DNA of 64,000 nt from the IMG/VR virus record IMGVR_UViG_3300002092_001548, positions 32,001 to 96,000 of that record; one strand, given 5' to 3'. The first letter of the stretch is position 1. Each line of letters opens with the position of its first letter. The position numbers were made by a program, and so were the translations under genes. Under the pieces are notes generated by a model. That model had not been told where the DNA came from. It worked only from the letters and a program-made list of their open reading frames with translations, and ran no database searches. This document shows positions 2,131-37,286 of this stretch, piece after piece. This DNA is from a virus.

Positions 2131-4041
2131 ATGGCTTTAAGTTTAATTAATAAAACACAATTAGCCCCTAACGTATCTGATTTAGTTAGTGGGTATGGCG
2201 TAAACTTTTTTTATCCACTATCTAATCCTAGCGGGTTTGCGGGTGCTGGTAGCTTCCTAACCACTGGGCAGTCTGGGCTTTTTTATTCCGCTACAAATCC
2301 AAGTGGGTTTTTACAAACTGGTACTGCAAGTACTACATATGCTACTATTACTAATTTAGCTTCGACTGGCTCAATTTTAGCCTCCTCAATTAGGACGCTA
2401 AGTGGTTTTTCAGCTTCGACCTATGCAACAACTGGAAGTCTTGGTGCCAATACTTCTGCGTGGGGCATAATAAACCCAGTTGCATTTGCAGAGTCATTAA
2501 GAGCTAATGTTAAAATAAATGGTGGCGGAACTCTTTCTGTTTTTGCGTTTACCGCTACTGCTTATGCTGTAAATTGGACTTCTAGATTCATTGTTGTTTC
2601 TAACGGCAATGGCACTAATTTTGCTAATGGTGGTTATTATGATATAACTATTCCCGGTAATGGTGCAGTTATAGCTGGCGTAGGGGGGGCAAATAATGCA
2701 TCCGTAGCTGGCGGAGTGCCCTTGGAACCATGGCAGGCACTTTATTATATTTTACCAATTGGAGGTAGTAATGTATCAGTAGAATCATATTATAGAATTG
2801 TTGATTATACTAGTTCATTAGATATTCCTTATAATTGGGTACTAATTGCTCATCGTAATGGTGATAATGGAGTAGTTTATTTTCCAAATGGTATTAATTT
2901 AAAAGTTGGGCAGAGTTATGATAACTCATATAATTTATCAGATTTGGTATCAATTGCACCCGTTATTTATAATACTTCTGGTCAGTGGATTACAAAGGCA
3001 TCGGGCAATAGTTCATATGCCACCATTACAAATCTTGCTTCGACTGGATCAACTCTTTACTCACAAATTACTGGACTAAGTGGTTATAATGCAAATACTT
3101 ATATTAAAAATAATAGCAGTATTAATTTAACTATTAGTGGCACTGGAAATTTTCAGGCAGTTAATATTAATTCTACCGGATCGAGTTCCGCATATAACGT
3201 ACCTTTTATTACAGTTTCTGGATCTGCAAGCGGATCCGTGTTTCAACAACTACAGAATACTTATACTGGAGTTACGGCAAGTACTGACATAAGTCTTTAT
3301 AATGATTTAGGAACAGCTTATCTTGATATTGGAATTAATAGTAGTAAGTATAGTGGCGCGGCTTACTCGCCACCTTTCACGGTAGTTGGGCCGAGCGATG
3401 CTTATGTTTATGCTACTGGAGGAAATTTAGCTATAGGTGTTACCAATCAGGCTAATATTAATTTCTTTGCAAACGGGGTTCAGAGTGGAAATATTGTAAT
3501 GGCTGTCAATAGTACGGGAGTATATATAAATAAAAATCCAGTATTAACTAATCAAAGTTTTTCTGTAAATTATCACAATACTGCAGATGCTCTAGCAGCG
3601 GGTTTTGTATATATTGGAACAATAGATCTTGGTATTGGTAATGCGACAACCGATAGGGCAATACCAATTCTTAGTAATTGTGTATTATCTAGGGCTTCAG
3701 CTGGTTATTATGCTGGAGGTAATGCTATTGCCCCTTATAATACTATTACTGGATACTTTATTAATGTAACGAAAGGTATTACTGGATTGGCTATAACTGG
3801 GACGGTCAGTAGCACCAATACATTTTATACATTTAGCACTGGACAAATACTCACATATTCTGGTGCGGGTGGCTTACCCCCTGCCGCGACCGCTTCTCCG
3901 CTTGCTACTGGAATGCCAGTTAGCAACGGAGACTTGGTATGTTATGGTATCAGATCTCCTGCTGGAGGTACTACTAGCCAATATTTAAGTGGATTTAGGT
4001 CAACTACTATTGCGTACTTTACACAAACTGGACAATTTTAA
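2131..4041 (+). CDS. virion fibre/appendage-like structural protein
   Basis: 636 aa, S/T/G/N-rich beta-type composition. Internal repeats FYxxxNPSGF (x2) and YATITNLASTGS (x2). Confidence 0.55.
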   Translation: MALSLINKTQLAPNVSDLVSGYGVNFFYPLSNPSGFAGAGSFLTTGQSGLFYSATNPSGFLQTGTASTTYATITNLASTGSILASSIRTLSGFSASTYATTGSLGANTSAWGIINPVAFAESLRANVKINGGGTLSVFAFTATAYAVNWTSRFIVVSNGNGTNFANGGYYDITIPGNGAVIAGVGGANNASVAGGVPLEPWQALYYILPIGGSNVSVESYYRIVDYTSSLDIPYNWVLIAHRNGDNGVVYFPNGINLKVGQSYDNSYNLSDLVSIAPVIYNTSGQWITKASGNSSYATITNLASTGSTLYSQITGLSGYNANTYIKNNSSINLTISGTGNFQAVNINSTGSSSAYNVPFITVSGSASGSVFQQLQNTYTGVTASTDISLYNDLGTAYLDIGINSSKYSGAAYSPPFTVVGPSDAYVYATGGNLAIGVTNQANINFFANGVQSGNIVMAVNSTGVYINKNPVLTNQSFSVNYHNTADALAAGFVYIGTIDLGIGNATTDRAIPILSNCVLSRASAGYYAGGNAIAPYNTITGYFINVTKGITGLAITGTVSSTNTFYTFSTGQILTYSGAGGLPPAATASPLATGMPVSNGDLVCYGIRSPAGGTTSQYLSGFRSTTIAYFTQTGQF

Positions 4042-4043
4042 AT

Positions 4044-4607: not shown

Positions 4608-4608
4608 T

Positions 4609-4776
4609 ATGAACGAAGAAACAATAGTGAGTGAAATTAAAAAGGATGAGGTAATTATTAAACAGAAGACCGTACTGGTTGCGACAGCCCTACAAATTTG
4701 GTCGCGCGCGAATCCAGTTAAAGCCGCCTTTATCCTTGGTGGAATTGTTGGTTTTATTTTAGGCACTATTATTTAG
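4609..4776 (+). CDS. small membrane protein (holin/antiholin-like), 55 aa
   Basis: Likely ATG at 4609, just after the previous stop (MNEETIVSE...). C-terminal TM segment AAFILGGIVGFILGTII. Confidence 0.5.
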   Translation: MNEETIVSEIKKDEVIIKQKTVLVATALQIWSRANPVKAAFILGGIVGFILGTII

Positions 4777-4789
4777 TGTAATAAGTTAT

Positions 4790-5865: not shown

Positions 5866-5903
5866 TTTAGTTTTAGTGTATTATTATTAATACTATTTAT
5901 TAT

Positions 5904-7826: not shown

Positions 7827-7884
7827 AGATTTCAGATAATTCGTTATCTAAAAACAAACAAAACAAATAAAATAACAAAAATTT

Positions 7885-8454: not shown

Positions 8455-8482
8455 TCTTAACCACTAACCGAAACAAATTTAT

Positions 8483-9661
8483 ATGAAAATTCAATTCGAA
8501 AAAAACCCAGAGCAAATCGAGCTTATCAAGGCTCTTGCATCTGAAAATAAAACAGTTGCAATGCAGGCTCAGGAGGCTTTCGCCGCTTTTATTAGTGACG
8601 TAGTTCTTCAGGTTCTCTTACAGGCTGGTACAGCTAGCATGATCTATCGTGACATCGAGTTCGATGAGGACGATTCTCCATCTATCCCTCTTGACCTTTA
8701 CTATGGACAGGGCGAAGGAACAATCAGCGTCTGGAGTCAGACAGTTGGTGGCGGTCTTCCTTCTAACCTACAACAGGGTCTACAGGAAATGAAGCTTAAC
8801 ACCTACCGCTTAGACAGTGCTATCTCTATGGAGAAGCGCTATGTCCGCCGCGCACGTCTCGACGTTGTTGCTGCTGGTCTTGAGCGTATGGCGAACGAGC
8901 TTCTTGTTAAACAAGAGCGTAATGCATGGGCAGTTATCCTAAAGGCGCTAGCCGAAGCCTCCACAACAGTGCAGGGTTCAACAGCAGCTACTGGCGGAAC
9001 AACTCACCTTATCCGTTCTGCCAATGATGGTGTCTTTGATATCGATACACTTAATAGACTATGGACAAAAGTTCGTAGAATTAATGCTGCTTACACAGGC
9101 GGTACACCTCTAAACCTACAGGCTCGTGGTCTTACAGATATCTTTGTAAGTCCTGAAGTCAAGGAGCAGATCCGTGGTTTTGCATATCAGCCAATGAATA
9201 CTCGTGGTGCAAACGGTGCAACTGGATCTCTTTCATCTGCTGGTGTTTTAGGTCTTCCTAACGGTGTTCGTGAAGAGATCTTCCGTGGCAGTGGAACACA
9301 GGAAATCTTCGGTGTTACAATTCACGAACTGCTTGAGCTTGGTCTAACTAGAAAGTACAATACACTATTCGGTACGTTTGCAACAGCAGCGAGCCTTAGT
9401 GTTAGTGCCCCTCAGACTGGTAATGCTAACAATAGTGGAACAACTTGGAGTACAAGTAATGATGAGCTTGTTATCGGTATCGATGCAACACGTAACGCAT
9501 TCCTTCGTCCAGTTGCAATCCAGAGTGAGAGTCGTGGACAGGTCAAGGTTCTTCCTGATGACCAGTTCCTAGCTCGTAGTCAGAAGGTTGGCTTCTACAG
9601 CTATGTGGAAGAAGGCCGTGTCTGTACTGACGCTCGTGCGGTTGTTGGTGTTATTGTCTAA
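8483..9661 (+). CDS. major capsid protein (HK97 fold inferred)
   Basis: 392 aa; position, biased codon usage, a strong terminator immediately after, and a C-terminal VGFYSYVEEGRVCTDARAV strand pattern. Confidence 0.8.
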   Translation: MKIQFEKNPEQIELIKALASENKTVAMQAQEAFAAFISDVVLQVLLQAGTASMIYRDIEFDEDDSPSIPLDLYYGQGEGTISVWSQTVGGGLPSNLQQGLQEMKLNTYRLDSAISMEKRYVRRARLDVVAAGLERMANELLVKQERNAWAVILKALAEASTTVQGSTAATGGTTHLIRSANDGVFDIDTLNRLWTKVRRINAAYTGGTPLNLQARGLTDIFVSPEVKEQIRGFAYQPMNTRGANGATGSLSSAGVLGLPNGVREEIFRGSGTQEIFGVTIHELLELGLTRKYNTLFGTFATAASLSVSAPQTGNANNSGTTWSTSNDELVIGIDATRNAFLRPVAIQSESRGQVKVLPDDQFLARSQKVGFYSYVEEGRVCTDARAVVGVIV

Positions 9662-9682
9662 GACTAATAGCAAATAAATTAG

Positions 9683-9715: not shown

Positions 9716-9762
9716 ACTGGCTAATTTATTATATTTTTAATTAATTTCGTAATATAATCTAT

Positions 9763-12620: not shown

Positions 12621-14819
12621 ATGGCGTCTCCGCGTGGATCAATTCCAAGTACAAGAAATCGTGTTATTTATAATGCGTTAAATTTGTACGTGGGACAAAC
12701 TGATGCTATATCTGGTGATCATACTAGTTTAGGATCGGTTCGTCAGTTAACTCGTGTACAGAGTTTTGATGAAGATTTTTCTCGTAATTTAGTTGACGTT
12801 AATCGTTATGGACAATTGGCTGCGGTGGATCGTATTGATTCGCAGTCACCAATCGTCAAGGCAAATTTTTCATATTTATTAACTGATGCAAGTAATGAGT
12901 ATTATATGGGATTAACAGTTGGTAATTTATTTTCCGGTATATATCCAGCCTCTTGTATTTCTGACATACTTAATGGAAGTACTGATTCTAAAAATTATTT
13001 TTTAACTGTAGCTGATGATGGTAATGATGCAATTAAATACAAGGGAATGAATACTGGAGTAATTGGTATAGGTAATGCATGTATTACAAATTATTCAGTT
13101 GAGGCCGCAGTAGGTCAGTTACCTAAGGCAGCAGTTTCTTTGGAAGGATTTAATATTAATGTTCTCTATCCGATGCAGGGTAATGGTTATGATCAACTTC
13201 CGTCAGTTGATCCTAATAGGGGAAGTTCTGTAGCTGGCGGCTTTATTATTCCCGTGGGGTCGGGGAGTAATTCTGTAGACCAAGTTGCGGCACTCCAACC
13301 CGGTCAAATGACACTTTCGTTAAGCGGTATTCTTGGATTTAGCTCCACTGATCTCAAGATCCAAAATTTTAAGCTTAATATTCCATTAAATAGAAAGCCA
13401 ATAATAAGAGTTGGAAATAAATTTCCCTCATATCGCCCTATAGAGTTTCCCGTTAAAGCTACCATATCAATTGATGCGGAACTAGGGTCATTATATGCTG
13501 GTGGCGCGCCATATAACGCAACTCCATACAGTGGGCAGCTTAATGTTACTGGTGTTCCGCCTTGGTACTTGAACCCTAATGAAGGCAATACTAGCGTAAA
13601 TAATTTTGATAATATACTATGTGATACTGGTGTTTATAATTTACAAGTTGCATTTAAAAATCCAAACTGTGCGGCAACAGGATCAAATGCATTATTGTAT
13701 CAATTTAATAATTGCCGACTATTGAACCAAAAAGTTTCTACTGCAATTGGATCAAATGCCAAGTTAAGTGCGGAGTGGGAAATGCGCGTGGGCGCGCCAG
13801 AAGATTTAACTAATGGAGTTTTTATATATGGAAATGTTATTAATACGCGCCCTTACACTATAACAACCCTTTTAGTAGGGGGTGGAGGAGGAGGAGATGA
13901 TATTGCTTTTAATAAACAATCATTTCTTAATTACCATTTTAATACAGGAGTTGCAAATGGTGGTGATGGTGGACAGGTAGTTATTGGAAACCTATCCTTA
14001 CAACCGAATTCCACATATGGAATATATGTTGGTCCGGGGGGCGCTGGTGCTGGAAAACAGCAAAATTTTGCTTCTACCAGTTCTGCCAGTACAAGCACTT
14101 CGTCATCAACTTCAACTTCAAGTAATAGTACGATGAACCATGCCATCCAATTTGCAACAGATGGTCAAAGTTCGTATATAAATCATAATGCTCAAACAGT
14201 TTTGTTAGCAAATGGTGGCAAAAATGGTTGTTATAATAATTATACAAGAAGTTATGCTGGGGGTGGTGGAAATTTTTCTTCAAACTTGAGCATGGGGGTA
14301 AATGGTGCACCCGGTTATTTTTCTAATATATTAGGAACTGGGACATATTATGGCGGTGGAGGTGCCGGATATTTAATAACAGGAAATATAACTGGGGTTG
14401 CTGGATCGGGGGTGTTAGGGCGAGGCGGTAATGGTGGTTATAATAATGGAAATGGTCGCTTTTATGGTCAACCGCAACATGGTTCTGATGGTGCCGTGAT
14501 TCTTTCTATACCAGCGTCACGATTCTCTTCGCAGTATGCTTTCGGATATGAAACATTTTTTGCACAAATTTCTGGAACTGTTCTTCATCTTATTCACAAT
14601 CCGAATAAATATGTTGACCTTCCTGTTGGATCGCAAATTACTGGACCTGGCGTTTCATCCGGAACTTATATAACAGCACTTCTTGGTAATGATAATTATT
14701 CTGTAAATATTTCACAAAACATTGGTTATGTATCAATGAATGCTACTTTGGGTAGTGTTTCAAGAAATGGTTCGAATGTAATTTTAACTTATCTATCGGC
14801 GGGAACATATACAGCATAA
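12621..14819 (+). CDS. tail tube protein paralog with C-terminal glycine-rich extension
   Basis: First ~405 aa are closely similar to 15686..16891, followed by a LLVGGGGGG...YYGGGGAG...GSDGAVILS glycine-rich domain. Confidence 0.7.
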   Translation: MASPRGSIPSTRNRVIYNALNLYVGQTDAISGDHTSLGSVRQLTRVQSFDEDFSRNLVDVNRYGQLAAVDRIDSQSPIVKANFSYLLTDASNEYYMGLTVGNLFSGIYPASCISDILNGSTDSKNYFLTVADDGNDAIKYKGMNTGVIGIGNACITNYSVEAAVGQLPKAAVSLEGFNINVLYPMQGNGYDQLPSVDPNRGSSVAGGFIIPVGSGSNSVDQVAALQPGQMTLSLSGILGFSSTDLKIQNFKLNIPLNRKPIIRVGNKFPSYRPIEFPVKATISIDAELGSLYAGGAPYNATPYSGQLNVTGVPPWYLNPNEGNTSVNNFDNILCDTGVYNLQVAFKNPNCAATGSNALLYQFNNCRLLNQKVSTAIGSNAKLSAEWEMRVGAPEDLTNGVFIYGNVINTRPYTITTLLVGGGGGGDDIAFNKQSFLNYHFNTGVANGGDGGQVVIGNLSLQPNSTYGIYVGPGGAGAGKQQNFASTSSASTSTSSSTSTSSNSTMNHAIQFATDGQSSYINHNAQTVLLANGGKNGCYNNYTRSYAGGGGNFSSNLSMGVNGAPGYFSNILGTGTYYGGGGAGYLITGNITGVAGSGVLGRGGNGGYNNGNGRFYGQPQHGSDGAVILSIPASRFSSQYAFGYETFFAQISGTVLHLIHNPNKYVDLPVGSQITGPGVSSGTYITALLGNDNYSVNISQNIGYVSMNATLGSVSRNGSNVILTYLSAGTYTA

Positions 14820-14820: not shown

Positions 14821-15621
14821 ATGGCTATTTTCACACAACTCGATTCAAATAATATAGTCCGAAATCTTTATAAGATTTCTGGTGGTACGGCATCTACCGA
14901 AGAGGGCGGGGTTGCATTCTGTGAACAGATTTGGGGACCGGGCCAATACATTCAAACTTTTGAAGAAGTGGGCCCAAAAAATAAAAGGCATAAAAATGCT
15001 GAAATTGGTGATTACTATGATTCAATAACCGATGGTTTTTATAGCACACGTATAGCACAAAATAATCGTATGCCATCTAGATGGCTAAACCTTCCAAACG
15101 GAACTTCTTACTGTGTTAATTATAGGGTTGCTAGTAGTACATTTCTTTCACTTATTGTAAAACAATATTTTAATAATAATGAGCAGTCGTCACGGCCGCA
15201 TGATTTCGCGCGCACCAATGGCGTTGCTGCGCCAACTGGTACTCCATATGCGATTATTCGTGATCCGGTAAGCAGATTCATTTCTGCATATTCATTAAGG
15301 GTTCGTGGCGTACCCGGCTGGTATCCAGTAGACCAATTTATCGATTGGATGATTGTGCAAGATAAAACAAAATTAAATCCTCACTTCATACCCCAAGTAA
15401 ATCTAGTTGGATCTCCAGAACCATTGGGTATTACTTATTTTGATTTTGCCAAAGACTTTAGTCCCATGGCGGTTACGCTTGGGCTTCCAACGCCAATACC
15501 CCAAAGAAATAAAACTGACGTATCAAAAAAACCAGTATTAACTCTAGATCAAATAACAAAATTACAGAATTTCTATTCTGATGATATGGATTTATATGCT
15601 AGAGTAAAAGCCCAAACATAA
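14821..15621 (+). CDS. fusion of phage tail-accessory domain and sulfotransferase-like (Sulfotransfer_2-type) domain
   Basis: N-terminus MAIFTQLDSNNIV...IGDYYDSITDGF; C-terminus YRVASST, IIRDPVSRFISAY, NPHFIPQ, FYSDD. Confidence 0.65.
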   Translation: MAIFTQLDSNNIVRNLYKISGGTASTEEGGVAFCEQIWGPGQYIQTFEEVGPKNKRHKNAEIGDYYDSITDGFYSTRIAQNNRMPSRWLNLPNGTSYCVNYRVASSTFLSLIVKQYFNNNEQSSRPHDFARTNGVAAPTGTPYAIIRDPVSRFISAYSLRVRGVPGWYPVDQFIDWMIVQDKTKLNPHFIPQVNLVGSPEPLGITYFDFAKDFSPMAVTLGLPTPIPQRNKTDVSKKPVLTLDQITKLQNFYSDDMDLYARVKAQT

Positions 15622-28216: not shown

Positions 28217-30004
28217 ATGGCTGGAAATTCTGTACCATATTTTTTAAATTTATATAACGTTCTAAGCGGCGCGCTAGATATTTATTATGATTTTAAAACA
28301 ACTGGTACTTATATTACAAACATTACTGGGTCTAATTTAACTGGACAATTATCTAATACTAATTATAGTAGCTTCTGGCAAAATTCTGGAAGTGGTTATT
28401 TTTCTGGAACTTATGTATCAATTAATACATCTGGAGTTTCTGGCCTTAATTTAAGTAATACCACGTACTTAACTGTTTATCAAAAAACTACGCCATCTGA
28501 TGGTCTTTTAATTTCTACCGCATATACCGGAGTTGATCCTGTATTTGGTAAATATACCGGAGGGTTTGATTTTGGAGTAACAGCTAATAATTATTTATAT
28601 TTTAATTACTACGTTACTGGACAGACCCAAACATTTACTTCAGACGTTCCGTTGCCAGATAAGGTTTCCGCTTTCGTGACATTACAAAATAATTTAGTAT
28701 CTTTTGGTAATTATGATTATTATGCACAGCAATTTAATTCTGTTAATTATCCTATAAATTCTAACTACTTATTTAATCCTAGTGGTATTTATTTGGGCGC
28801 AAACCCTATAATGAATAATTCACGCCCATTTACTGGTTATATAGATGAGTTTTTGGTTTTTAGTCCTTCGGTATATCCTTCTTTAATAAAATATATTAAT
28901 AGCGGTTTTGCATATGACTATTCAGTCTTGACTTCCGGGCCGCTATCTGGACAATTCACTGGAGTTACTGGGACACAGGTTTATGTGACTGGATATTATA
29001 CAAATGTAACGGGTTATAATGTAATACCAACAGGTGTTATATATGATTATTTTGGTAATCAATATACAGGGGTTCAAGTTGTTCCATTAAGTTTAACTGT
29101 ATCTGGAACTGGATTACAACAATTAACTGGGGTAACAAGCCAGATTACGGGCTATTCTTCTGTAACAGCTTCTCTTTTTTATAATACTGGATATGTTGGT
29201 ACTTTTGGGAAGAGTACTATTAACTTATTATCTCCAATAATTAGTGGAGATGTTGTAGATATTAATTTGCCCACAAATGGTTATCCATTTGGTTATGAAA
29301 ATAATTTACGGTTGAGTTATAATACTATTAATGGTGGTTGTTTTAGTAACACATATTTAAAAAGTAATCCTAATTTAAATTATATAGTTTTTCAAAATGG
29401 TCTGACACTAAATTCTGGAGCTTATAGTGTAACAGGAACAGTTGGCAATAGTGGCATACGGTTCTCTAATGATTATTACATTGATCAAAAGAATAATATT
29501 TTCCTTGCAAATGGTTTTAATGGGCTTACAGATAATATTTCAGTTGCTTACGCAGATACATTTACTGGAGTTTATAATTCTGGTTTATATATACAAAATT
29601 TTAATATAAATAGTTTGGGTGGATCATCTGGTACTTATATATTACCTTGGAATGCTTCTTCGTATAATATATTTTATAATGGGCAAAAATTAATTAGTGG
29701 ATTGCAATATGGAATTACTGGTGGCGGCTCATCTATTTATTTTAAGACGGGTAATATTTTTGATAATAATTCTGGACAGCTTTTTGCACTACCCAGAAAC
29801 TTCCAGACTGAAATAACTGGTGGCACGCAAACATTCTATAATTTACCCATATTTTATGATAATTTTTCAGAAGTTTATAAGAATGGCCAACGCCTAGCCG
29901 TCGAGCAAGATTATTTAGAACTCGGCCAATATGACATTAACTCTGGTCAGGGTATTTTTGATACTAAACCTTATTTATTGTATAATAATAGTGATCTTTT
30001 CTAG
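28217..30004 (+). CDS. tail protein with LamG/concanavalin-like N-terminal domain
   Basis: IYLG...FTGYIDEFLVF motif typical of LamG-like domains; very rich in [ST]G. Confidence 0.55.
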   Translation: MAGNSVPYFLNLYNVLSGALDIYYDFKTTGTYITNITGSNLTGQLSNTNYSSFWQNSGSGYFSGTYVSINTSGVSGLNLSNTTYLTVYQKTTPSDGLLISTAYTGVDPVFGKYTGGFDFGVTANNYLYFNYYVTGQTQTFTSDVPLPDKVSAFVTLQNNLVSFGNYDYYAQQFNSVNYPINSNYLFNPSGIYLGANPIMNNSRPFTGYIDEFLVFSPSVYPSLIKYINSGFAYDYSVLTSGPLSGQFTGVTGTQVYVTGYYTNVTGYNVIPTGVIYDYFGNQYTGVQVVPLSLTVSGTGLQQLTGVTSQITGYSSVTASLFYNTGYVGTFGKSTINLLSPIISGDVVDINLPTNGYPFGYENNLRLSYNTINGGCFSNTYLKSNPNLNYIVFQNGLTLNSGAYSVTGTVGNSGIRFSNDYYIDQKNNIFLANGFNGLTDNISVAYADTFTGVYNSGLYIQNFNINSLGGSSGTYILPWNASSYNIFYNGQKLISGLQYGITGGGSSIYFKTGNIFDNNSGQLFALPRNFQTEITGGTQTFYNLPIFYDNFSEVYKNGQRLAVEQDYLELGQYDINSGQGIFDTKPYLLYNNSDLF

Positions 30005-30016
30005 CAATAATATATT

Positions 30017-32620
30017 ATGAATCAAGGCTTTGTAACTATACCTCAAATTAATGGAGAATTTTTTAATGCTTTGCCCTATTCGGTAAATTGGAATTTTAAT
30101 GATGGGACTAGCCCGTCTACATTAACGGTTAATCTCATTAGAGAGGATGGGGTTTATGATGTTGGTGGTATCGAAGCGTCTCTTGGGTATTCAAGAATTT
30201 ATAATATTTCTATAGGCAATGGTTTTAATTTTGTTGGGTATTTAACAGATTATTCTATAGAAAAAACGCCTGAACAAAAATTATTAACATTAGAATATAC
30301 AGATTTGGGCGCAGATTTAGATAGATATTATGTTGGATTAAATAAAAAGTATGGCAATAAGTCTAATAATTTATCGCCTAATTTAATTCTTGTTGGTAAA
30401 GAGTATCATCCATGTGATCCAAATTTAGATTCTAGCGTACCATATAGCTCTACTGCTGGGCTGGCAGTTGATCCGTGTGATCCTTGTCCGTTTATGCCTA
30501 AAGATAAATATAAGTTGGCATGTGACCCCGGTATGGCTAGTTTTAATATTTACGAAGTTTTTTATACATTTAATGAGTTGATAACTCAACTGCCAATTGC
30601 GGCAGACTCCAGTGGAATAATAGTAGATAATCAATTTAGAGCCCAGCATGTTGGAAAATTAAAGGATGTGCTGAGTGCATGGTGTTCTGCTTTAGGGTAT
30701 GCTTATTACTGGGATCCACTTCGGAATCAGTTAATTTTTATAAATCGAAGGTTACCCATTTCAATTCCAGATCCAAATTATACCCAACAAGCAAATGCTA
30801 GTATTATTGATTTTAAATATGGAGCAACGGTAAAGTCTACGTATTCCAGAGGATTTTTAGGATATTTTTCAAAAGAAGGGGCGGTTCATGATTATACATG
30901 CGCTCTAGATCCGTATGATAGTTTTGTGGATACGAAACCACTTACACTGCTAGATATAATTGATACTTCTGATGGTGGAACTGAATTCTCTGGTGGTGGA
31001 TATACTTATGCAGATAAAGTTCAAATTACTACAGCGCTATCTTATTATAGTAGGGCATTAAGGGACTCTTGGTTATGGTTTGAGTATTGGGGTATTACAG
31101 ATGATAGTTCCGCACAACAAGCAGCAGGAAAAACTTTGACAGATTTTGGTAATATGGTTATTAAGGATGTTTTTTCTCCAAATGCAAAATCCAATGTTTA
31201 TGTAAGGCTAACCTCTCCTGACGTTTTAAGCATAGCACAATTAACTTCGCTAGCTGGTAAAAATTTTTATTTTATTGTTGCAAAACAAGATGATGATCTT
31301 GCAGAGAAGCAATTTCACAATGTCGAGGGTGTTGCAAAAGGATTTTTAGGAAAATATTGGTATGCCTATTATAACACTCCTATTCCCGGTGGTTCAAATG
31401 ATAAATCAAATATTACTGCTGAAACGGCAGACGGAGGAAGCGCTGAGTGGCATTTAGCCGGAACAAATATTACATCTCTTCCTATTTTTGGTTTTGGGTA
31501 TAAACCATCGGGTAACTCTAAATTAGGACAGTTTGCAAAACAAGTGGCTGCTGATGAATCTGCTAATAATAATACAATTCAAAATCTGCAATCTCAGGGG
31601 GGAAATAACCAAACCGGGCCGCAAGATATCGCACTTACATCTTTTATTTTAGCCCAAAGAGATGCGAAGTGGTCTCCATCCGATGATCAAATTAGTTGGT
31701 ATCAGTCATTATTTCAATGGAATCAAGATATGCTACCCAAGATAGTTGGGGTTGATGGGCGTCCAGATATTTTATTTGATCCAGATATTGCACCCTATGC
31801 CAAAACCGATACTTCAATAAAGTTATTTTTAGTGGTAGAGTATCCGGGTAATTATACATTTTCGCAATCTAACGCTCAACATCCGAATGAGTATACTTCT
31901 CCAAAAAAGAAAACAAAAGTAGAGCAAGATTCTTTGGGTAATCCTATTACACTTTATTATGGGAATTATGGGCTTCGTAATCCTACCACAACACAGATTA
32001 CCGTACCGGGCATGACAATAACTCTTCCCGTGGGGGCTTTTGGGACTTCTGACAGTCCAAACATAACTGCGGCCGCAATGGGAAGTTGGAGTAATCAATC
32101 TTCATCAAGTCCTACTTATACAGTGTTTGTAAATGCTAGCCAATCATTTAAAAAGGTTCTTCCAAAGATTGAAGTTAGCGCGGGATGGGCAGCAGAAACA
32201 ACAAATGTTGCGCAAATAGATTATCATTATAAGGAGGCAAGAGAAGACAACTTGGATTTAGTCAATGGTGGTAAATTATGTACGCCAGCAAATGATAATA
32301 TTTATAAATACTTTGAGCCATTAGCTAACAATGCAGTAACTTCGCAATCCAGTCCTCAAAGAAAAATGTCGTTTAAGCTGCCGGGCATATTTCCAGCACA
32401 ATATTCAGTAGGAGAAGGTTTGGTTGGAATACAAATATCTTTAACAAGTAATGGATTTTTTACTAGCTATTCTTTTGAAGATAGGATAATTCAGCCACCT
32501 AGTGATGAATATATTATGGAAAGCGTTATTGCGAAAACTATTGCTAGGGGGCATAAGGGCGATAGTCATGTCGTGGGAAACAATTCTCAAATGGTTGGGA
32601 GGTCTCTAGGGTTCGCATAA
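30017..32620 (+). CDS. tail tip/baseplate hub (Tal-like) protein
   Basis: 867 aa; PSTLTVNL, FVGYLTDYSIEK, LKDVLSAWCSALGYAYYWD are hub-like segments. Confidence 0.55.
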   Translation: MNQGFVTIPQINGEFFNALPYSVNWNFNDGTSPSTLTVNLIREDGVYDVGGIEASLGYSRIYNISIGNGFNFVGYLTDYSIEKTPEQKLLTLEYTDLGADLDRYYVGLNKKYGNKSNNLSPNLILVGKEYHPCDPNLDSSVPYSSTAGLAVDPCDPCPFMPKDKYKLACDPGMASFNIYEVFYTFNELITQLPIAADSSGIIVDNQFRAQHVGKLKDVLSAWCSALGYAYYWDPLRNQLIFINRRLPISIPDPNYTQQANASIIDFKYGATVKSTYSRGFLGYFSKEGAVHDYTCALDPYDSFVDTKPLTLLDIIDTSDGGTEFSGGGYTYADKVQITTALSYYSRALRDSWLWFEYWGITDDSSAQQAAGKTLTDFGNMVIKDVFSPNAKSNVYVRLTSPDVLSIAQLTSLAGKNFYFIVAKQDDDLAEKQFHNVEGVAKGFLGKYWYAYYNTPIPGGSNDKSNITAETADGGSAEWHLAGTNITSLPIFGFGYKPSGNSKLGQFAKQVAADESANNNTIQNLQSQGGNNQTGPQDIALTSFILAQRDAKWSPSDDQISWYQSLFQWNQDMLPKIVGVDGRPDILFDPDIAPYAKTDTSIKLFLVVEYPGNYTFSQSNAQHPNEYTSPKKKTKVEQDSLGNPITLYYGNYGLRNPTTTQITVPGMTITLPVGAFGTSDSPNITAAAMGSWSNQSSSSPTYTVFVNASQSFKKVLPKIEVSAGWAAETTNVAQIDYHYKEAREDNLDLVNGGKLCTPANDNIYKYFEPLANNAVTSQSSPQRKMSFKLPGIFPAQYSVGEGLVGIQISLTSNGFFTSYSFEDRIIQPPSDEYIMESVIAKTIARGHKGDSHVVGNNSQMVGRSLGFA

Positions 32621-35619
32621 TGATAACAATCAATACGAAAAGATATAGGTCATTTTATCCACAAACTGGTGTTTCGTGGGGTGCGAATTTATTGCCCCAA
32701 AGTATTAATAATAGCTTTTCTTTTTCTTTTTCTGGTTCTAGTGGAACATGTAATATTTTTAACTTTGTTGGTAATAAAATATTTTCTCCAGATAATCTGT
32801 TAATTGGTTCTTACTCACAAAACCAGTCGTTATATTTTTCTGGAAACGTTGGAACGCAAACTGCTGACCTATATTTGAATTCTTCCCCTTTGTATCTTGG
32901 ATTACCGGTAAAAAATAATCAAGTTTTATCTGGAGTTTATTTGAATTCTAGCAATGGCGCGCCAATTAATTTAGTTAATTTAACAGTTAATGGTCAAACA
33001 ACTGCACCTTACTCGACAACCAACTCGTATAATTTATCTTATGGTCAATCATTTGTTCCTGTTAATTTTGTTAATAGCGGAAGTTATCCTGTTATTATCT
33101 TTTCGGGGTCTAGTTCCAATAGAAATTATGTAATAACCGGGACGTTTCCATTGTTATCTGTCGCTCCCGGCAAAACTGGAATTTTTAATTTAACCAATAC
33201 TGGACTGTTTGATTTAAGTTTATTAAGTAGTAATATTCCTATTACGCTTTCTACTAATTTAGGTGTATTGACTGGTCAAGTAAATGCCATTGGGGGAAGC
33301 ATTCCCTTGGGTTCTTCTTTTATTAATTTAATTCCAGAAGTTACTCTCTTACCAAGCGGTGGGGCCAATATTGTAACTCTTGTTATGCTGAATAATAGTG
33401 GTTCAGCATTAAATGTTAGTTTAAAATATGTTAGTGGATACACTGGAGTGGTTTATAATCCAGTTCAAGTTACTCAATATTATACTGAAAATATAAACGG
33501 AACTATTACTGGTGCTGCATATTTTGTTAAATATGTCTCTAGCCCAACAACTGGTGCTGGCCTTCCTCCATATTATGTTACTCAATATAATTCACTTTTA
33601 GGCGCAAATGAAACAACTGTAGCTAGTGGTATTTTAACAAGTGATATAATTTATGCTCCAGATATGGCTGTGGCTGGAACTGCAATTTTAAACTCATCTG
33701 GAATAGGAGATTTATATACTGGTTTTAATGGTCAAATATTTAATGGTAAAATAACTGGAAGTGGTATTACTGATGTTATACCATCATATGGTTATACTAA
33801 TTATATAACTGGAGGAATTTTGACCGGATACCTTTCGCCTGGCATGCCTCTTTATACTAATTTCTTTGGGCAGGCGTTATCTGGAATATATCAGTCTGGA
33901 GTAACTTTGTATAGCGTATATCAACCAAGTAATTATATATATTCACCTTTATCTGTATCACAGTATACTTCACAAGTATTATCTGCAACAAATAGTGCGT
34001 ATATAGTGGGAAGCTTCCTAGGTCTCTGGTCAACTACTGGTGTTGCTTCAGTAACGGGAGTTTTGGGCGCTGGAAATACAACTGGTACTATTAGTATTCC
34101 GATTACCATAACTGGAGCTTATCCTTATACAATCACTTCACAGTCTCAATCTGGAAGTTATAGTGTTACAAATGCTAAAGTTTCTGGATTCTTTCCAGCA
34201 AGTACATTTGTATCATATAATTCTCTAAATAATAATTTATTACAATATAATAATTCTTTCACAGTGGGTAATCCATGGTTTTATTCAAATGTTAATACGG
34301 GCTTAAGCACGGGTGTTGCCGGGCCATTTGTTCGTACTAGTGGTATACAATTTCAATCATCTGGAGATGGTGGAGGATATTTACAATCCATATCACTAAC
34401 AAGTGGTACTCAATATACTTTTTCAGTATATGCTAAATATATTTCTGGAGATAGTCGTGTTTATATTGGTAGAGATGGTTATGCTAGTATATATGATTTA
34501 GTTGCAGCTACTGGCAGTGATTCATCGGGCGTATCTTCAACTATTACACCAATAACAAATGGGTGGTATAATATTGCAAGTACTTGGTTAGAAAATATTG
34601 GGGGGAATCAAAATGTAGATATTTATGCATACCGTTCTGGTTCTGCTTTTCAAATTTTTAATGCGCAGTTGCTCTCCTATTCTAATTTATATTCTGCATA
34701 TGATCAATACGTAACTGGTATTATAACTAAAACATTTAACCCTATAGGGTCTTATACATTTTATAATACATTTACTGGTTATTTTTATAGTCCTAGCTAT
34801 CCGAATGTAAATAGTATTTATTTTAACGAGTCTATAACTTCTGTTGGGACGGGTATTGGGTTTATCACACATACTTCTACTAAAAATGTATATGTTGTTA
34901 TAGATCCAACAGCTATAGCTGCATGTTCAGGTCAGATTAATTCTAATCCATATATACAACAATTTATTTATTATCCTATAACTGGATTAATTTCAGCAAG
35001 TTTAACTGGAACAATATCGGGTGCCATAATTAATCTAAACGTTCCTATTACTATTACTGGAATGACTACTAATGGATACTATTCTGAAATAAATTCAAAA
35101 TATGTTACAACTACTGGAACAAGCATTGGACAAATATCAGCTTCATGTACAGACTCTAATGGAAATATTTTTTATCTTAATGATGGCAGATCTTTTAGTG
35201 TGACTGGTAATGTAACAGGAAGTTATTCTGGACTATTGGCAAGCACGATAGATGGAAGTTGGCCAGTTGCTGGTATTTTAACTGGAACGCTTTATCAATA
35301 TCAAGGCATTAGAACATATACTGGGAATTGGACTTTATCGAGTGGGTCAACTATAGTTAATCTAAATTATTTAGCAAATAGCGGCACAACTTCATATAAT
35401 AGTATATTAGGAACTGGTGTGGGATATAAATACCCATATGTTTCGCAATTACTTGTAGGATATAATGATATGTTTTCTGTTTCACTAAATAATGCAGGAC
35501 TTTCTGGATACTATCCGGGATATGATATTGTTAAATTAACGGTAACTGGGGCTAACTTTATTGGAATTGGTCGCGGTAGTGGATTAAATTTATTACTTTC
35601 GGGAGTGGGCGCAGTATGA
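32620..35619 (+). CDS. tail fibre/receptor-binding protein with carbohydrate-binding-like insert
   Basis: 999 aa, S/T/G/Y-rich; NLLQYNNSF...SGTQYTFSVYAK...ITNGWYNI resembles a CBM-like fibre domain. Confidence 0.55.
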   Translation: MITINTKRYRSFYPQTGVSWGANLLPQSINNSFSFSFSGSSGTCNIFNFVGNKIFSPDNLLIGSYSQNQSLYFSGNVGTQTADLYLNSSPLYLGLPVKNNQVLSGVYLNSSNGAPINLVNLTVNGQTTAPYSTTNSYNLSYGQSFVPVNFVNSGSYPVIIFSGSSSNRNYVITGTFPLLSVAPGKTGIFNLTNTGLFDLSLLSSNIPITLSTNLGVLTGQVNAIGGSIPLGSSFINLIPEVTLLPSGGANIVTLVMLNNSGSALNVSLKYVSGYTGVVYNPVQVTQYYTENINGTITGAAYFVKYVSSPTTGAGLPPYYVTQYNSLLGANETTVASGILTSDIIYAPDMAVAGTAILNSSGIGDLYTGFNGQIFNGKITGSGITDVIPSYGYTNYITGGILTGYLSPGMPLYTNFFGQALSGIYQSGVTLYSVYQPSNYIYSPLSVSQYTSQVLSATNSAYIVGSFLGLWSTTGVASVTGVLGAGNTTGTISIPITITGAYPYTITSQSQSGSYSVTNAKVSGFFPASTFVSYNSLNNNLLQYNNSFTVGNPWFYSNVNTGLSTGVAGPFVRTSGIQFQSSGDGGGYLQSISLTSGTQYTFSVYAKYISGDSRVYIGRDGYASIYDLVAATGSDSSGVSSTITPITNGWYNIASTWLENIGGNQNVDIYAYRSGSAFQIFNAQLLSYSNLYSAYDQYVTGIITKTFNPIGSYTFYNTFTGYFYSPSYPNVNSIYFNESITSVGTGIGFITHTSTKNVYVVIDPTAIAACSGQINSNPYIQQFIYYPITGLISASLTGTISGAIINLNVPITITGMTTNGYYSEINSKYVTTTGTSIGQISASCTDSNGNIFYLNDGRSFSVTGNVTGSYSGLLASTIDGSWPVAGILTGTLYQYQGIRTYTGNWTLSSGSTIVNLNYLANSGTTSYNSILGTGVGYKYPYVSQLLVGYNDMFSVSLNNAGLSGYYPGYDIVKLTVTGANFIGIGRGSGLNLLLSGVGAV

Positions 35620-37286
35620 GTGTTAATCCTTCTTTAGTTTGTACTGGTAAGACTTACTGGAATAATTGCTGGAATTATTGTGTATCATGCACTGGCCAGT
35701 GGAATGTTACTGGATGTGCGTGTCAGGGTAGTCCTGCCTCAATGTCTTATTCATCATACAATGGGGTAACAACCTTAACAGAAATTCCTGTTCTTAATTA
35801 TACAACGGTAGATACTACTGTTCCATCAATAATCACGGCGCTTCCTAATTACGAATATTTTCCTCCCGATATTCTTTTAATGGCAACTACAAAATGCGTA
35901 GTAATAAATGGAATCACTGGCGCGCAAACATTTCCATCATATATGATAAATGGCGGTGCTCCAAATATTAAATATAATGTTCAGTTAAATGGTATTGATG
36001 CAAGTAATAATTCTACATTTACATATCAAGGCTCCGTATCACCAAGCCAGACTGTTCAGGTTTTATCCGGATTGAGTTTTATTACAAATACAGCGGCCGC
36101 TGGAGGAAATTATCAATATGAGAATGAACAATTAAATGTTAGTGCTACATATGTTGATCCTACTTATGGGTATACATATCCAATGGGATATAACATTCCC
36201 TTACAAAATGTTACTTGGCTACCAGATTGTGCACATACTGGAGCAACATCGCAGACAACGGGTACTGGTGGTTTTATTTTTACTGCAAATAGTGGTATAT
36301 GTATTGGACCAGGTGGTTGTACTTATAGTGGGCAATTTAGTTTTGGCGGAAGTGGTAATGCTGCTAAATCTTATAGCGTGTCTATTACTGCTAATTACTC
36401 AAATGGTACATATGCTACTTTAACGTATCCTCGTGCAAATCCATCTATTTATAATTTTGAAGTATATACCGCTAATAATATTTACGACCAATATAATAAT
36501 TTATATGTTACAGGCAATCCTCCTAAAGTGCAATTAACTTTATATTATATAAATAATAGTGATTCTAACGACTATGGATATTTAGTAACTGGAATTATGC
36601 TTCCTATGTGTCAGGGTAATCCATATACTGTTACCGGTACGAGTACTAGTAATATTGCTTGTACTTATGGTTGTGGGGCATATAAATATCCTTATTATTA
36701 TTTAAATAAAACTTCTTTTAGAAAAATTAATTTTACAACCGGATGGACAGGATATAATAGTAGTTACAATATAGATGCTTACGCGAACATTTCTGGCAAA
36801 TACCAGTCTTTGGAAACTGATGTTTATACTCCAAATGGAAACTATTGTCCCGGTGCCTCAATTACATATTCTGGAACTTCTAATTTTAGCGGAGATTATT
36901 TGGCGGTAGATACTAGTGCCGGATATCCACAGCCAGGAACCATTGAATATTCATTTAATTGCTATAGCGCACAAAAATCAAATGGAACTTGGACTGGACA
37001 TCTTACAATATTGAGTTATGTTGACGGGGGTGGGTACTTAACATATCCAACAGTGGTAGCCTCGCAGGATAGTAGTATTCTTCATCCTTGTCATTTATAT
37101 ACTGATTCTAATTGGAATGGGGTTAATTATTTAGAATCCTTCCAGGATAGCAATTTTGTTACACAAACTGTTGCGCCTTATCCTATAACTACAGCCCCTT
37201 CTATTGATACCTATACAAATCCCTGTCCATGCTTATGCCCCTCGCAATATACTGCAAGTGCTGGGCAATGTGTGTATGTTGGTTAA
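35616..37286 (+). CDS. Cys-rich tail/fibre protein
   Basis: 556 aa; Cys clusters at both termini (CWNYCVSC...CACQ; CPCLCP...C). Confidence 0.5.
   Translation: MSVNPSLVCTGKTYWNNCWNYCVSCTGQWNVTGCACQGSPASMSYSSYNGVTTLTEIPVLNYTTVDTTVPSIITALPNYEYFPPDILLMATTKCVVINGITGAQTFPSYMINGGAPNIKYNVQLNGIDASNNSTFTYQGSVSPSQTVQVLSGLSFITNTAAAGGNYQYENEQLNVSATYVDPTYGYTYPMGYNIPLQNVTWLPDCAHTGATSQTTGTGGFIFTANSGICIGPGGCTYSGQFSFGGSGNAAKSYSVSITANYSNGTYATLTYPRANPSIYNFEVYTANNIYDQYNNLYVTGNPPKVQLTLYYINNSDSNDYGYLVTGIMLPMCQGNPYTVTGTSTSNIACTYGCGAYKYPYYYLNKTSFRKINFTTGWTGYNSSYNIDAYANISGKYQSLETDVYTPNGNYCPGASITYSGTSNFSGDYLAVDTSAGYPQPGTIEYSFNCYSAQKSNGTWTGHLTILSYVDGGGYLTYPTVVASQDSSILHPCHLYTDSNWNGVNYLESFQDSNFVTQTVAPYPITTAPSIDTYTNPCPCLCPSQYTASAGQCVYVG

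What the first reader, a model, noticed from the sequence alone, without database searches (positions are those of the whole stretch)
2131..37286. Candidate virion glycosylation system: [S/T]-G sequon enrichment in virion proteins plus a large phage-encoded glycan toolkit
Seen: in 28217..30004 I hand-count about 41 SG/TG dipeptides, so roughly 60% of ~69 Gly are preceded by S/T (e.g. QFTGVTGTQVYVTGYYTNVTGYNVIPTG). Similar enrichment is visible in 2131..4041, 32620..35619, 35616..37286, the decoration protein and the neck/tube proteins. The 867-aa hub (30017..32620) has only about 4. The same genome encodes about 8 glycosyltransferase-like genes, 4 methyltransferases, Gmd, RfbH, an epimerase, a cupin and a sulfotransferase-like protein inside the tail module. 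Known: Ser-Gly is the acceptor motif for eukaryotic proteoglycan O-xylosylation, and some phages glycosylate their virions. Inference: [ST]G is an O-glycosylation sequon on exposed virion surfaces, giving a methylated, possibly sulfated, deoxy-sugar coat.
Basis: partly seen in the sequence, partly recalled or inferred. Interest (0 to 1): 0.88.

Follow-up and report, generated by a model that had tools for sequence, protein, structure and literature searches.

The report
Ser/Thr-Gly tag on phage fibre proteins
The tail-fibre-like proteins of this uncultured lake phage and its many relatives carry two to three times more Ser-Gly and Thr-Gly pairs than chance, and the same phages always keep a set of sugar-transferring enzymes, so the pair may be a sugar-attachment site, though no chemistry has been shown.

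Summary
The count is right. 28217-30004 has 41 [ST]G among 69 Gly (13.6 expected, z 8.7). 32620-35619 has z 7.5 and 2131-4041 z 4.4. G[ST] shows no excess. TG and SG are the top two of 400 dipeptides, and NG, DG and [ST]A are not enriched.

The excess is at protein level, spread over unrelated fibre-like proteins, and present in all 32 members of the 28217 family. It also occurs in seven fetched relatives with GC 0.30-0.49. None of 54 structural proteins of T4, lambda and S-CBS4 reaches z 4.

Ser and Thr interchange freely, and sites turn over while their density is kept. In the model, 19 of 41 sites lie inside strands, not turns.

A core of two GT4 enzymes, a split GT9 fold, Gmd and four unknown genes is kept in all seven relatives. 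The methyltransferases, GT17, GT34 and RfbH branch vary.

Not upheld: the enrichment of capsid, neck and tube proteins (control range) and the "sulfotransferase".

No known protein-O-glycosyltransferase family was found, and no relative lacking the enzymes exists to test. Glycosylation is plausible (about 0.45) but unproven. A lineage-specific structural motif is the main rival. The scan noted related, but different, motifs on other phage DNA.

The parts
2131..4041 (+). 636-aa fibre-like protein, [ST]G-enriched. It shares short segments with two enriched proteins outside the window (genome 118912-120639 and 121612-122805, minus strand).
   Evidence: 32 observed against 17.5 expected, z 4.4. 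KRDE 5.5%. Residues 150-250 hold 15 Gly and 0 [ST]G; the BLAST segments are in the same call. No Pfam or PHROG hit.
28217..30004 (+). 595-aa distal tail protein, the most enriched. It has an N-terminal ConA/CBM40-like lectin jelly-roll, a long beta hairpin at 239-316 with 7-residue V-T-G periodicity, and C-terminal beta domains.
   Evidence: 41 against 13.6, z 8.7. All 32 family members score z 4.5-12.3. Model pLDDT 79. Fold matches. Mapping on secondary structure.
30017..32620 (+). 867-aa conserved protein between the two most enriched genes ('hub' by position only). It is depleted in [ST]G.
   Evidence: 4 against 10.9, z -2.3. The 11 orthologues score z -3.0 to +1.3. No family or PDB match.
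32620..35619 (+). 999-aa fibre-like protein, strongly enriched along its whole length.
   Evidence: 62 against 28.8, z 7.5. Orthologues or positional equivalents score z 6.5-16.3. Weak CBM_4_9 hit at E 0.0098. No PDB relative.
35616..37286 (+). 556-aa Cys-rich (20 Cys) distal protein, moderately enriched.
   Evidence: 20 against 11.7, z 2.9. Cys count. No homologue in seven relatives.
39417..40202 (-). 261-aa clade-core protein of unknown function, the first gene of the conserved glyco-module.
   Evidence: 43-66% identical in all seven relatives. Virus-only clusters in the ESM Atlas. No Pfam, PHROG or NCBIfam hit.
40234..41421 (-). 395-aa protein: the C-terminal (nucleotide-sugar) half of a GT9 fold plus DUF6734. 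Clade core.
   Evidence: PF01075 E 2.7e-13, model positions 105-240. WaaF 1psw residues 214-308. LPS heptosyltransferase models at about E 1e-9. Present in 7 of 7 relatives.
41423..43381 (-). 652-aa protein: GT4-type GT-B domain (about 16-445), DUF4214, then the N-terminal half of a GT9 fold (542-605). Clade core, found in at least 560 viral contigs.
   Evidence: Pfam. 3tov residues 7-68. Model pLDDT 84.8. The top Foldseek match is chlorovirus NY-2A GT 3oy2, followed by MshA, GlgM, HepE, BshA and PimA. Spread over contigs.
43353..43799 (-). 148-aa clade-core protein of unknown function.
   Evidence: 33-54% identical in 7 of 7 relatives.
44412..45014 (+). 200-aa clade-core protein of unknown function.
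   Evidence: 30-58% identical in 7 of 7 relatives.
45302..46393 (+). 363-aa GT4-family glycosyltransferase. Clade core.
   Evidence: Weak PF00534 hit. ESM Atlas score 0.99 to viral GT4 clusters. 46-67% identical in 7 of 7 relatives.
46554..46991 (+). 145-aa clade-core protein of unknown function.
   Evidence: Among the 22 ORFs with a hit in all seven relatives.
50651..51742 (+). GDP-mannose 4,6-dehydratase (Gmd). Clade core.
   Evidence: PF16363 E 3e-109. TIGR01472 E 6e-109, 364 bits, below the 415-bit equivalog cut-off. 57-72% identical in 7 of 7 relatives. Present in 7 of 10 related records.
53363..62372 (+). Variable glycan-tailoring block: cupin 53363-53725, unknown 53722-54663, FkbM MT 54660-55307, GT34 55309-55983, MT24 55986-56573 and 56537-57238, unknown 57238-57942, MT 57946-58593, weak GT9-like 58593-59399, GT17 59396-60196, RfbH-type 3-dehydrase 60224-61546, SDR 61518-62372.
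   Evidence: Pfam. NCBIfam RfbH E 6.6e-110, 368 bits, below the 423-bit cut-off. Each gene is present in 0 to 3 of seven relatives.

Best explanation
Hydrophobic-[Ser/Thr]-Gly is a recognition and acceptor site for a clade-specific post-translational modification of the fibre and distal-baseplate proteins. The most likely modification is O-glycosylation carried out in the host cytoplasm by the phage's own soluble enzymes.

Proposed steps, all inferred. Gmd turns host GDP-mannose into a GDP-4-keto-6-deoxyhexose. The clade-core transferases (the GT4 domain of 41423, the GT9 fold split between 41423 and 40234, and the GT4 45302, with the unknown core proteins) start and extend a glycan on the Ser/Thr hydroxyl. 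The variable block (GT17, GT34, the RfbH/SDR 3,6-dideoxy branch, cupin, four methyltransferases) then decorates it in a strain-specific way.

Shown: the motif statistics, their spread across the clade, selection on the hydroxyl plus Gly, and the conserved enzyme core. Not shown: any sugar on any protein, which enzyme touches protein, or surface exposure of the sites.
For: The excess is large and specific. TG has z 11.9 and SG z 8.2, the top two of 400 dipeptides in the enriched set, although that set was chosen on this statistic. G[ST], NG (0.99), DG (0.91) and [ST]A (57 against 55.6) are flat.

It is a protein-level effect: NNT, NNC and NNG codons all take part.

It is protein-class-specific. 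36 of 406 proteins of 150 aa or more reach z 4 in the first genome set, and 32 of 457 in four further genomes. All are fibre-like. The tape measure, portal-like protein, capsid protein and 30017 are not enriched.

Bulk composition does not explain it. Equally low-charge, Gly-rich proteins of the same genomes score z -0.8 to -2.7. GC does not explain it either (0.295-0.494).

It is not general to fibres: 0 of 54 control proteins reach z 4, and the maximum is 2.6.

It is not a turn motif in the model: 19 of 41 sites are strand-strand and 11 are coil, whereas 19 of 28 other Gly are coil.

The hydroxyl is conserved. Ser/Thr in [ST]G is retained 82% of the time against 58% elsewhere. Changes are S<->T swaps in 40% of cases against 18%. 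16 of 26 conserved columns use both residues.

Sites turn over while their number is kept. Homologues at 27% identity share 14-16 sites and have about 30 private ones.

At least four sequence families without mutual BLAST similarity are enriched in this one genome, though 35616 only at z 2.9.

Eight of the 22 ORFs conserved in all seven relatives form one glyco-module.

No large multi-pass membrane protein is encoded, so there is no Wzx, Wzy, WaaL or oligosaccharyltransferase candidate. No ThyA-family hydroxymethylase is present for DNA glycosylation.

Precedents: TibC, a GT9-fold enzyme, hyper-glycosylates Ser on a folded beta-helix in the cytoplasm, and one of its two mapped sites lies in an S-G context (PMC4358343, passages). 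Mycobacteriophage virions are glycosylated (as cited in PMC12619734, passages).
Against: There are no chemical data.

Co-occurrence with the GTs holds inside one clade only, so it amounts to a single evolutionary observation. No near-complete genome lacking the GT was found for a contrast, and four of the six complete or near-complete genomes examined were selected through the GT itself.

No known protein-O-GT family was detected. TIGR04414 (Aah/TibC), GT41 and Maf were each absent from the genome.

GT4 and GT9 enzymes mostly act on lipids, sugars or small molecules, and the fold search names no acceptor.

Soluble GTs could equally work on host lipid-linked intermediates.

About half the sites are positionally conserved (mean 0.52). 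Twelve of the 41 sit in a periodic V-T-G beta segment that looks like a structural repeat.

Across genomes, the enriched proteins link by single linkage into two mosaic superfamilies, so shared domains may carry part of the signal.

The monomer model of a probable trimer is least confident (pLDDT 60-73) exactly where most in-strand sites lie.
Confidence: 0.45

Rival explanations
1. Structural grammar. Hydrophobic-[ST]-Gly is a lineage-specific building block of these beta-rich, probably trimeric fibre domains, for example corners or kinks of beta-helix or beta-prism segments and strand starts. It is kept for folding or assembly. The glyco-module serves something else.
For: Mean positional conservation of the sites is 0.52, above the family's overall identity, and some columns are invariant (S229-G230, T251-G252). 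There is a 7-residue V-T-G periodicity at 248-272 and a hydrophobic residue at -1 and +3, as expected for alternating in/out strand positions. Thr predominates at in-strand sites and Ser at coil sites (14 T and 5 S against 5 T and 6 S, read). Enriched proteins of different genomes link into mosaic superfamilies.
Against: Known fibre, beta-helix and baseplate folds show nothing of the kind: T4 gp5, gp10, gp12, gp34 and gp37, lambda J and the S-CBS4 fibres score z -2.4 to 1.2. The Asx equivalents NG and DG are not enriched, as a generic turn or capping role would predict. About 30 of 45 sites are private in distant homologues while the total is kept, with the caveat that alignment error at 27% identity inflates this. 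The excess recurs in proteins with no BLAST similarity to each other, and some Gly-rich domains have none.
Confidence: 0.33
2. The motif is read by something other than a phage glycosyltransferase. Candidates are a host enzyme, or a different chemistry on Ser/Thr such as phosphorylation or phosphoglycosyl or other O-linked groups. Another possibility is a chaperone or assembly factor that recognises the dipeptide.
For: Selection acts on hydroxyl plus Gly. No recognisable protein-O-GT is present. Four clade-core proteins of the module have no assignable function.
Against: No kinase or other Ser/Thr-modifying family turned up in the Pfam scans of all 58 window ORFs plus the open-ended 63415 ORF. 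Hosts across a clade spanning GC 0.30-0.49 would all need the same enzyme.
Confidence: 0.12
3. The excess is a by-product of composition, repeats or nucleotide-level bias, with no function of its own.
For: The enriched proteins are extreme in composition (KRDE 3-8%, N+S+T+G+Y above 50%). There is a codon-junction bias: NNA is avoided before GGN.
Against: Shuffles preserve composition. G[ST] is flat. Similarly composed proteins are not enriched. No internal repeats appear in self-BLAST of 28217, 32620, 35616 or 2131. Three of four third-base classes of codon take part. The excess persists at GC 0.49.
Confidence: 0.05

Closest known systems
Mycobacteriophage virion glycosylation (Che8, Corndog, Myrna; Freeman et al. 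2023, Cell Host Microbe)
   Same: Phage-encoded glycosyltransferases would modify the phage's own structural proteins in the cytoplasm before release.
   Different: As cited in PMC12619734 (passages), the glycans there sit at the C-termini of capsid and tail-tube subunits. Here the capsid and tube-region proteins are not enriched, and the candidate sites are dispersed dipeptides on fibre-like proteins. The original paper is not held, so details are recalled or second-hand. No homology between the enzyme sets was tested.
Bacterial autotransporter heptosyltransferases (BAHT: TibC/Aah acting on TibA/AIDA-I)
   Same: Cytoplasmic, multi-site O-glycosylation of a beta-rich surface protein by a GT9-fold enzyme. 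One of the two mapped TibA sites lies in an S-G context (PMC4358343, passages). This phage has a conserved GT9 fold.
   Different: The TIGR04414 model finds nothing in the genome. In that paper BAHT modifies Ser and not Thr, whereas here S and T are equal. The other mapped TibA site is S-A, and [ST]A is not enriched here. The GT9 fold here is split over two genes. No heptose pathway was seen in the window's Pfam scans.
Chlorovirus (PBCV-1 type) autonomous capsid glycosylation
   Same: A virus-encoded Gmd, several soluble GTs and sugar methyltransferases acting without a host secretory pathway. The best structural match of the core GT4 domain is a chlorovirus NY-2A GT (3oy2, E 3.7e-16).
   Different: By my recall, not from a call, that system is N-linked to Asn of the major capsid protein of a eukaryotic virus. 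Here NxS/T is not enriched and the capsid protein is not a candidate. The 3oy2 match is at fold level, among many GT4 enzymes.
Eukaryotic proteoglycan xylosylation at Ser-Gly (XylT, GT14)
   Same: A Ser-Gly dipeptide as an O-glycan acceptor.
   Different: The xylosyltransferase consensus needs flanking acidic residues and uses Ser only (recalled). Here acidic and basic residues together are 3-8%, Thr is as frequent as Ser, and no GT14 (Branch) family appeared in the Pfam scans of the window.
Motif-plus-GT findings of this scan on other phages ([S/T]-G-x-T, S-[G/A]-x-T, G-x-T-[G/A])
   Same: A short Ser/Thr-Gly-containing motif concentrated on outer tail and fibre proteins beside phage GTs (AI notes).
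   Different: Tested here: [ST]G.T (20 observed against 30.2 under a dipeptide-preserving null), S[GA].T (7 against 9.3) and G.T[GA] (10 against 8.9) are not enriched. The motif here is the bare dipeptide with a hydrophobic residue before it.

Membership tests
BAHT (TibC/Aah) protein O-heptosyltransferases | Match to the family model TIGR04414 (hepto_Aah_TibC) | tested here: not met
   0 matches in G000 at E <= 0.01. 40234 matches only the LPS heptosyltransferase models at about E 1e-9.
BAHT (TibC/Aah) protein O-heptosyltransferases | GT9-type GT-B fold | tested here: inconclusive
   Both halves are present but on two polypeptides: the N-half at 41423 residues 542-605 (E 0.002-0.011) and the C-half at 40234 residues 30-157 (E 2.7e-13).
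BAHT (TibC/Aah) protein O-heptosyltransferases | Ser-only acceptors; iron-finger; dodecamer; ADP-heptose donor | tested here: not met
   Ser-only is not met: T:S is 22:19, 32:30, 17:15 and 13:7 in the four window proteins. The iron-finger, oligomer and donor were not tested.
Mycobacteriophage-type virion glycosylation | Glycans on the C-termini of capsid and tail-tube subunits | tested here: not met
   The putative capsid protein 8483-9661 scores z 0.5, and its orthologues -0.4 to 0.7. The tube-region genes are within control range. Actual glycans are not testable here.
Virus-encoded autonomous glycosylation (chlorovirus-like) | Virus-encoded nucleotide-sugar enzyme(s) plus several soluble GTs and methyltransferases | tested here: met
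   Gmd, RfbH-type enzyme, SDR, six GT-like genes and four MTs. No large multi-pass membrane protein is encoded.
Virus-encoded autonomous glycosylation (chlorovirus-like) | Glycan demonstrated on a structural protein | not testable with these tools
   Needs mass spectrometry or glycan staining of virions or recombinant protein.
Proteoglycan Ser-Gly xylosylation (GT14) | Acidic residues flanking Ser-Gly; GT14 enzyme | tested here: not met
   KRDE 3-8% in the enriched proteins. No GT14 family in the Pfam scans of the window.
O-glycosylation sequon in general | Motif over-represented after composition correction, specifically on outer virion proteins, with the hydroxyl residue conserved | tested here: met
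   Controls.
O-glycosylation sequon in general | Sites solvent-exposed on the folded or assembled protein | not testable with these tools
   The structure tool returns secondary structure and pLDDT only, and no coordinates.
GT41 (OGT/HMW1C) and Maf flagellin glycosyltransferases | Match to PF13844 or PF01973 | tested here: not met
   0 matches in G000 for either family.

The most novel reading that the evidence does not exclude
A very large clade of uncultured aquatic phages, seen on at least 560 viral contigs, glycosylates its rapidly evolving tail fibres at a minimal two-residue sequon, hydrophobic-[Ser/Thr]-Gly. It would do so with a clade-core cytoplasmic machine built from two GT4 enzymes and a GT9 fold split over two polypeptides, none belonging to a known protein-O-glycosyltransferase family. 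Strain-specific tailoring enzymes would then diversify the glycan. This would be a bacterial-virus counterpart of the chlorovirus and mimivirus self-glycosylation systems, and a new protein O-GT specificity.
Probability: 0.3. Interest if true: 0.85.

Novelty: new variant of a known kind. Interest (0 to 1): 0.62.

Why it matters
Virion glycosylation has been demonstrated only in a few mycobacteriophages, and there on capsid and tube ends.

A simple, countable sequon on receptor-binding fibres, tied to a conserved enzyme core in hundreds of environmental phage genomes, would have three consequences. It would make phage self-glycosylation a widespread trait. It would give a sequence rule for predicting glycosylated phage proteins from metagenomes. 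It would also point to an unrecognised protein-O-glycosyltransferase type (GT4 and/or split GT9).

The idea is directly testable by co-expressing one fibre protein with eight genes.

If the motif turns out instead to be structural, it defines an unusual fibre-building rule absent from model phages.

Tried and rejected
A beta-turn explanation is rejected as the sole cause. Sites are mostly in strands in the model, and NG and DG are flat.

Composition, GC and repeats as causes are rejected.

A DNA-level motif is rejected. Only NNA codons are avoided before GGN; the other three third-base classes take part.

An extended motif is rejected for this phage: [ST]-G-x-T, S-[G/A]-x-T, G-x-T-[G/A], D-[ST]-hydrophobic and NxS/T are not enriched.

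Naming the virion proteins failed. Pfam and PHROGs are nearly blank. The PDB sequence searches of 14821, 32620 and the 30017 profile gave nothing.

No cultured relative was found. The phage collection holds none for the 28217 protein, and only distant GT4 N-domains for 41423.

The search for a natural knockout failed. Baits from the fibre, the 30017 protein, the GT and the portal-like protein all returned the same clade. Records without Gmd or the GT were fragments of 30-60% completeness.

Four literature searches found no paper describing an [ST]G sequon on phage fibres. That covers the held library only. Freeman 2023 was not readable, and no supplements were consulted.

Surface exposure could not be computed because no coordinates are returned.

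Full report
WHAT THE WINDOW IS. The window is bases 32001-96000 of a 138,208-bp virus record. It is an uncultured phage with GC of about 0.35. Pfam and PHROGs recognise almost none of its structural proteins. The exceptions are a lysozyme (5251), a tape measure (19026-24908, PF10145), a Gly-rich domain (12621) and a weak portal hit (135-2129).

THE OBSERVATION. With 1000 composition-preserving shuffles per protein:
- 28217-30004 has 41 [ST]G among 69 Gly, against 13.6 expected (z 8.7).
- 32620-35619 has 62 against 28.8 (z 7.5).
- 2131-4041 has 32 against 17.5 (z 4.4).
- 35616-37286 has 20 against 11.7 (z 2.9).
- 30017-32620 has 4 against 10.9 (z -2.3).

The reverse dipeptide G[ST] is flat everywhere.

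Genome-wide, over 173 ORFs, three more enriched proteins lie outside the window:
- genome 121612-122805, minus strand, with 34 [ST]G among 45 Gly (z 7.3);
- genome 118912-120639, minus strand (z 4.1);
- genome 112320-112718, minus strand (z 3.4).

In the enriched set, TG (z 11.9) and SG (z 8.2) are far ahead of the other 398 dipeptides. The set was chosen on this statistic, so this shows mainly that both residues contribute. Before Gly, T is 2.39-fold and S 1.98-fold over expectation. N is 0.99 and D 0.91, while Y, F, Q and P are depleted. [ST]A is not enriched (57 against 55.6). The only extension of the motif is a hydrophobic residue at -1 ([ILVF][ST]G, 97 against 70.8 under a dipeptide-preserving null) and weakly at +3. 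NxS/T is not enriched.

The enriched proteins have 3-8% charged residues, against 24% in the rest of the genome.

NOT AN ARTEFACT. Ser and Thr codons ending in T, C and G all take part. Only NNA codons are avoided before GGN, which is a separate junction bias.

Self-BLAST shows no internal repeats in 28217, 32620, 35616 or 2131. Those four share no mutual similarity, apart from short segments linking 2131 to the two out-of-window proteins.

Some Gly-rich stretches inside enriched proteins have no sites: 2131 residues 150-250 hold 15 Gly and 0 [ST]G.

Relatives with GC from 0.295 to 0.494 show the same trait. They also contain low-charge, Gly-rich proteins with no excess, at z -0.8 to -2.7.

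CONTROLS. None of 28 T4 structural proteins exceeds z 2.1. The fibres gp34, gp37, gp12 and gp10 and the gp5 beta-helix score -1.6 to 0.8. Ten lambda proteins reach at most 2.6. Sixteen proteins of cyanophage S-CBS4 reach at most 2.5, and a fibre with 186 Gly scores -2.4. So 0 of 54 control proteins reach z 4.

Their orthologues score 0.8-2.7.

SPREAD. The 28217 protein has 31 homologues at 27-51% identity. All 32 family members score z 4.5-12.3.

Twelve related viral loci keep the same gene order:
- tape measure;
- 24915-like, neutral;
- 26581-like, neutral;
- 28217-like, z 6.0-10.5 in the 11 loci where the ORF was called;
- 30017-like, z -3.0 to +1.3;
- 32620-like or a positional equivalent, z 6.5-16.3.

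Seven whole relatives were fetched. They share 42-72 ORFs with this genome where that was counted, and each has 4-11 proteins at z 4 or more. In total, 36 of 406 proteins of 150 aa or more reach z 4 in the first set, and 32 of 457 in the second. Many have no BLAST hit to this genome. Single linkage across genomes does merge most of them into two mosaic superfamilies plus three singletons, so they are not many independent folds.

EVOLUTION OF THE SITES. Mean positional conservation of the query's 41 sites is 0.52. Some are invariant. Many columns mix S and T: 16 of the 26 columns that have [ST]G in at least 16 of 32 sequences use both.

Homologues at about 27% identity share 14-16 sites and have about 30 private ones, while their totals stay at 44-46. 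Alignment error at that distance inflates the apparent turnover.

At 55-95% identity, Ser/Thr in [ST]G is retained 82% of the time against 58% elsewhere. Changed residues are S<->T swaps in 40% of cases against 18%. The pairs are not independent, so these figures are descriptive.

STRUCTURE. The model of the 28217 protein has pLDDT 79.2 and pTM 0.72. It shows an N-terminal jelly-roll that matches ConA-like and CBM40 lectin domains, then a long hairpin at 239-316 (pLDDT 60-73), then C-terminal beta domains.

Of the 41 sites, 19 are strand-strand, 11 are coil-coil, and the rest are mixed. Of the other 28 Gly, 19 are coil. Twelve in-strand sites lie in the low-confidence hairpin, where V-T-G recurs every 7 residues. 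That may be a genuine structural repeat of a trimeric beta-helix. Coordinates are not returned, so surface exposure was not tested.

THE ENZYMES. Confirmed at family level:
- Gmd;
- an RfbH-type 3-dehydrase;
- an SDR;
- a WbuC-like cupin;
- FkbM, two MT24 and one MT23/11 methyltransferases;
- GT34 and GT17;
- a GT9 C-half (40234);
- GT4 + DUF4214 + GT9 N-half (41423);
- a GT4 (45302);
- a weak GT9-like (58593).

The 41423 model (pLDDT 84.8) is a GT4-type GT-B fold. Its best structural match is a chlorovirus NY-2A GT, followed by MshA, GlgM, HepE, BshA and PimA.

Only 22 ORFs of this genome have a hit in all seven relatives. Eight of them form one module: 39417, 40234, 41423, 43353, 44412, 45302, 46554 and Gmd. 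The tailoring genes occur in 0 to 3 relatives.

The 41423 family is on at least 560 viral contigs. The portal-like core gene is on at least 571.

All complete or near-complete records examined carry the GT: G002, G012, G013, G018, G019 and G021. Four of those six were selected through the GT itself.

No large multi-pass membrane protein is encoded. No ThyA-family hydroxymethylase is present, only ThyX. No Aah/TibC, GT41 or Maf family member is present.

The 'sulfotransferase-like' 14821 has no support.

READING. The data show selection for hydroxyl-plus-Gly on fibre-like proteins, clade-wide, alongside a clade-core soluble glyco-module. The simplest link is that the module, or part of it, glycosylates these sites. 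I put this at 0.45.

The main rival is a lineage-specific structural rule with an unrelated role for the GTs, at 0.33. Another reader or another chemistry gets 0.12, and artefact 0.05.

The link between motif and enzymes is one phylogenetically non-independent co-occurrence and nothing more.

KNOWN SYSTEMS. Phage self-glycosylation is established for mycobacteriophages. I saw only its citation in PMC12619734, because the original paper is not held.

TibC shows that a GT9-fold enzyme can hyper-glycosylate Ser on a folded beta-protein in the cytoplasm. Its two mapped sites are one S-G and one S-A (PMC4358343, passages).

Neither family's defining features are met here.

This scan's earlier notes report [S/T]-G-x-T-type motifs in other phage lineages. 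That extended form is not enriched here.

Noticed in passing
window 40234-43381 (-): A GT9 GT-B fold is split over two adjacent genes. The N-domain lies at the C-terminus of 41423-43381 and the C-domain at the N-terminus of 40234-41421. The arrangement is stop, 1 nt, ATG, so the two are in different frames. The same split occurs in L003 and in all seven relatives.
   Followed up: partly
enriched genes of G000 (window 2131-4041, 28217-30004, 32620-37286, and two genes outside the window): Ser and Thr codons ending in A are strongly avoided directly before GGN: ACA 0.03 against 0.18, TCA 0.01 against 0.12, chi-square p 2e-14. This is a codon-junction bias, perhaps avoidance of AGG or AGGA.
   Followed up: no
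window 12621-14819 and 15686-16891: Both ORFs hit the same single ORF in G002, G009 and G010 at 38-45% identity, so this phage has a duplicated tail-region gene. One copy carries an extra Gly_rich_2 domain, and the orphan 14821-15621 lies between the two.
   Followed up: no
alignments A3 and A4 (41423 family): Most family members carry a CxxC...CxxC motif, like a zinc ribbon, at about residues 283-305. The subclade of this window keeps only Cys283 (consensus lines).
   Followed up: no
L058:3001-4929: One orthologue of the core GT has an in-frame stop codon. I dropped it from the alignment.
   Followed up: no
window 47066-49742: The class I ribonucleotide reductase pair is 76-81% identical in the otherwise most distant relative G010, but has no hit in G002 or G009. 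This suggests mosaic exchange.
   Followed up: no
window 35616-37286: This 556-aa distal protein has 20 Cys, clustered at both ends, in a genome whose other fibre-like proteins have 0-3. It has no homologue in seven relatives.
   Followed up: no
S-CBS4 (L162 9916-12282), S-EIVl, TJE1: Three cultured phages carry a distant GT4 relative of 41423, at about 25% identity over the N-domain. In S-CBS4, the only one whose annotation I read, it lies inside the head-gene region next to a methyltransferase. S-CBS4 structural proteins show no [ST]G excess.
   Followed up: partly
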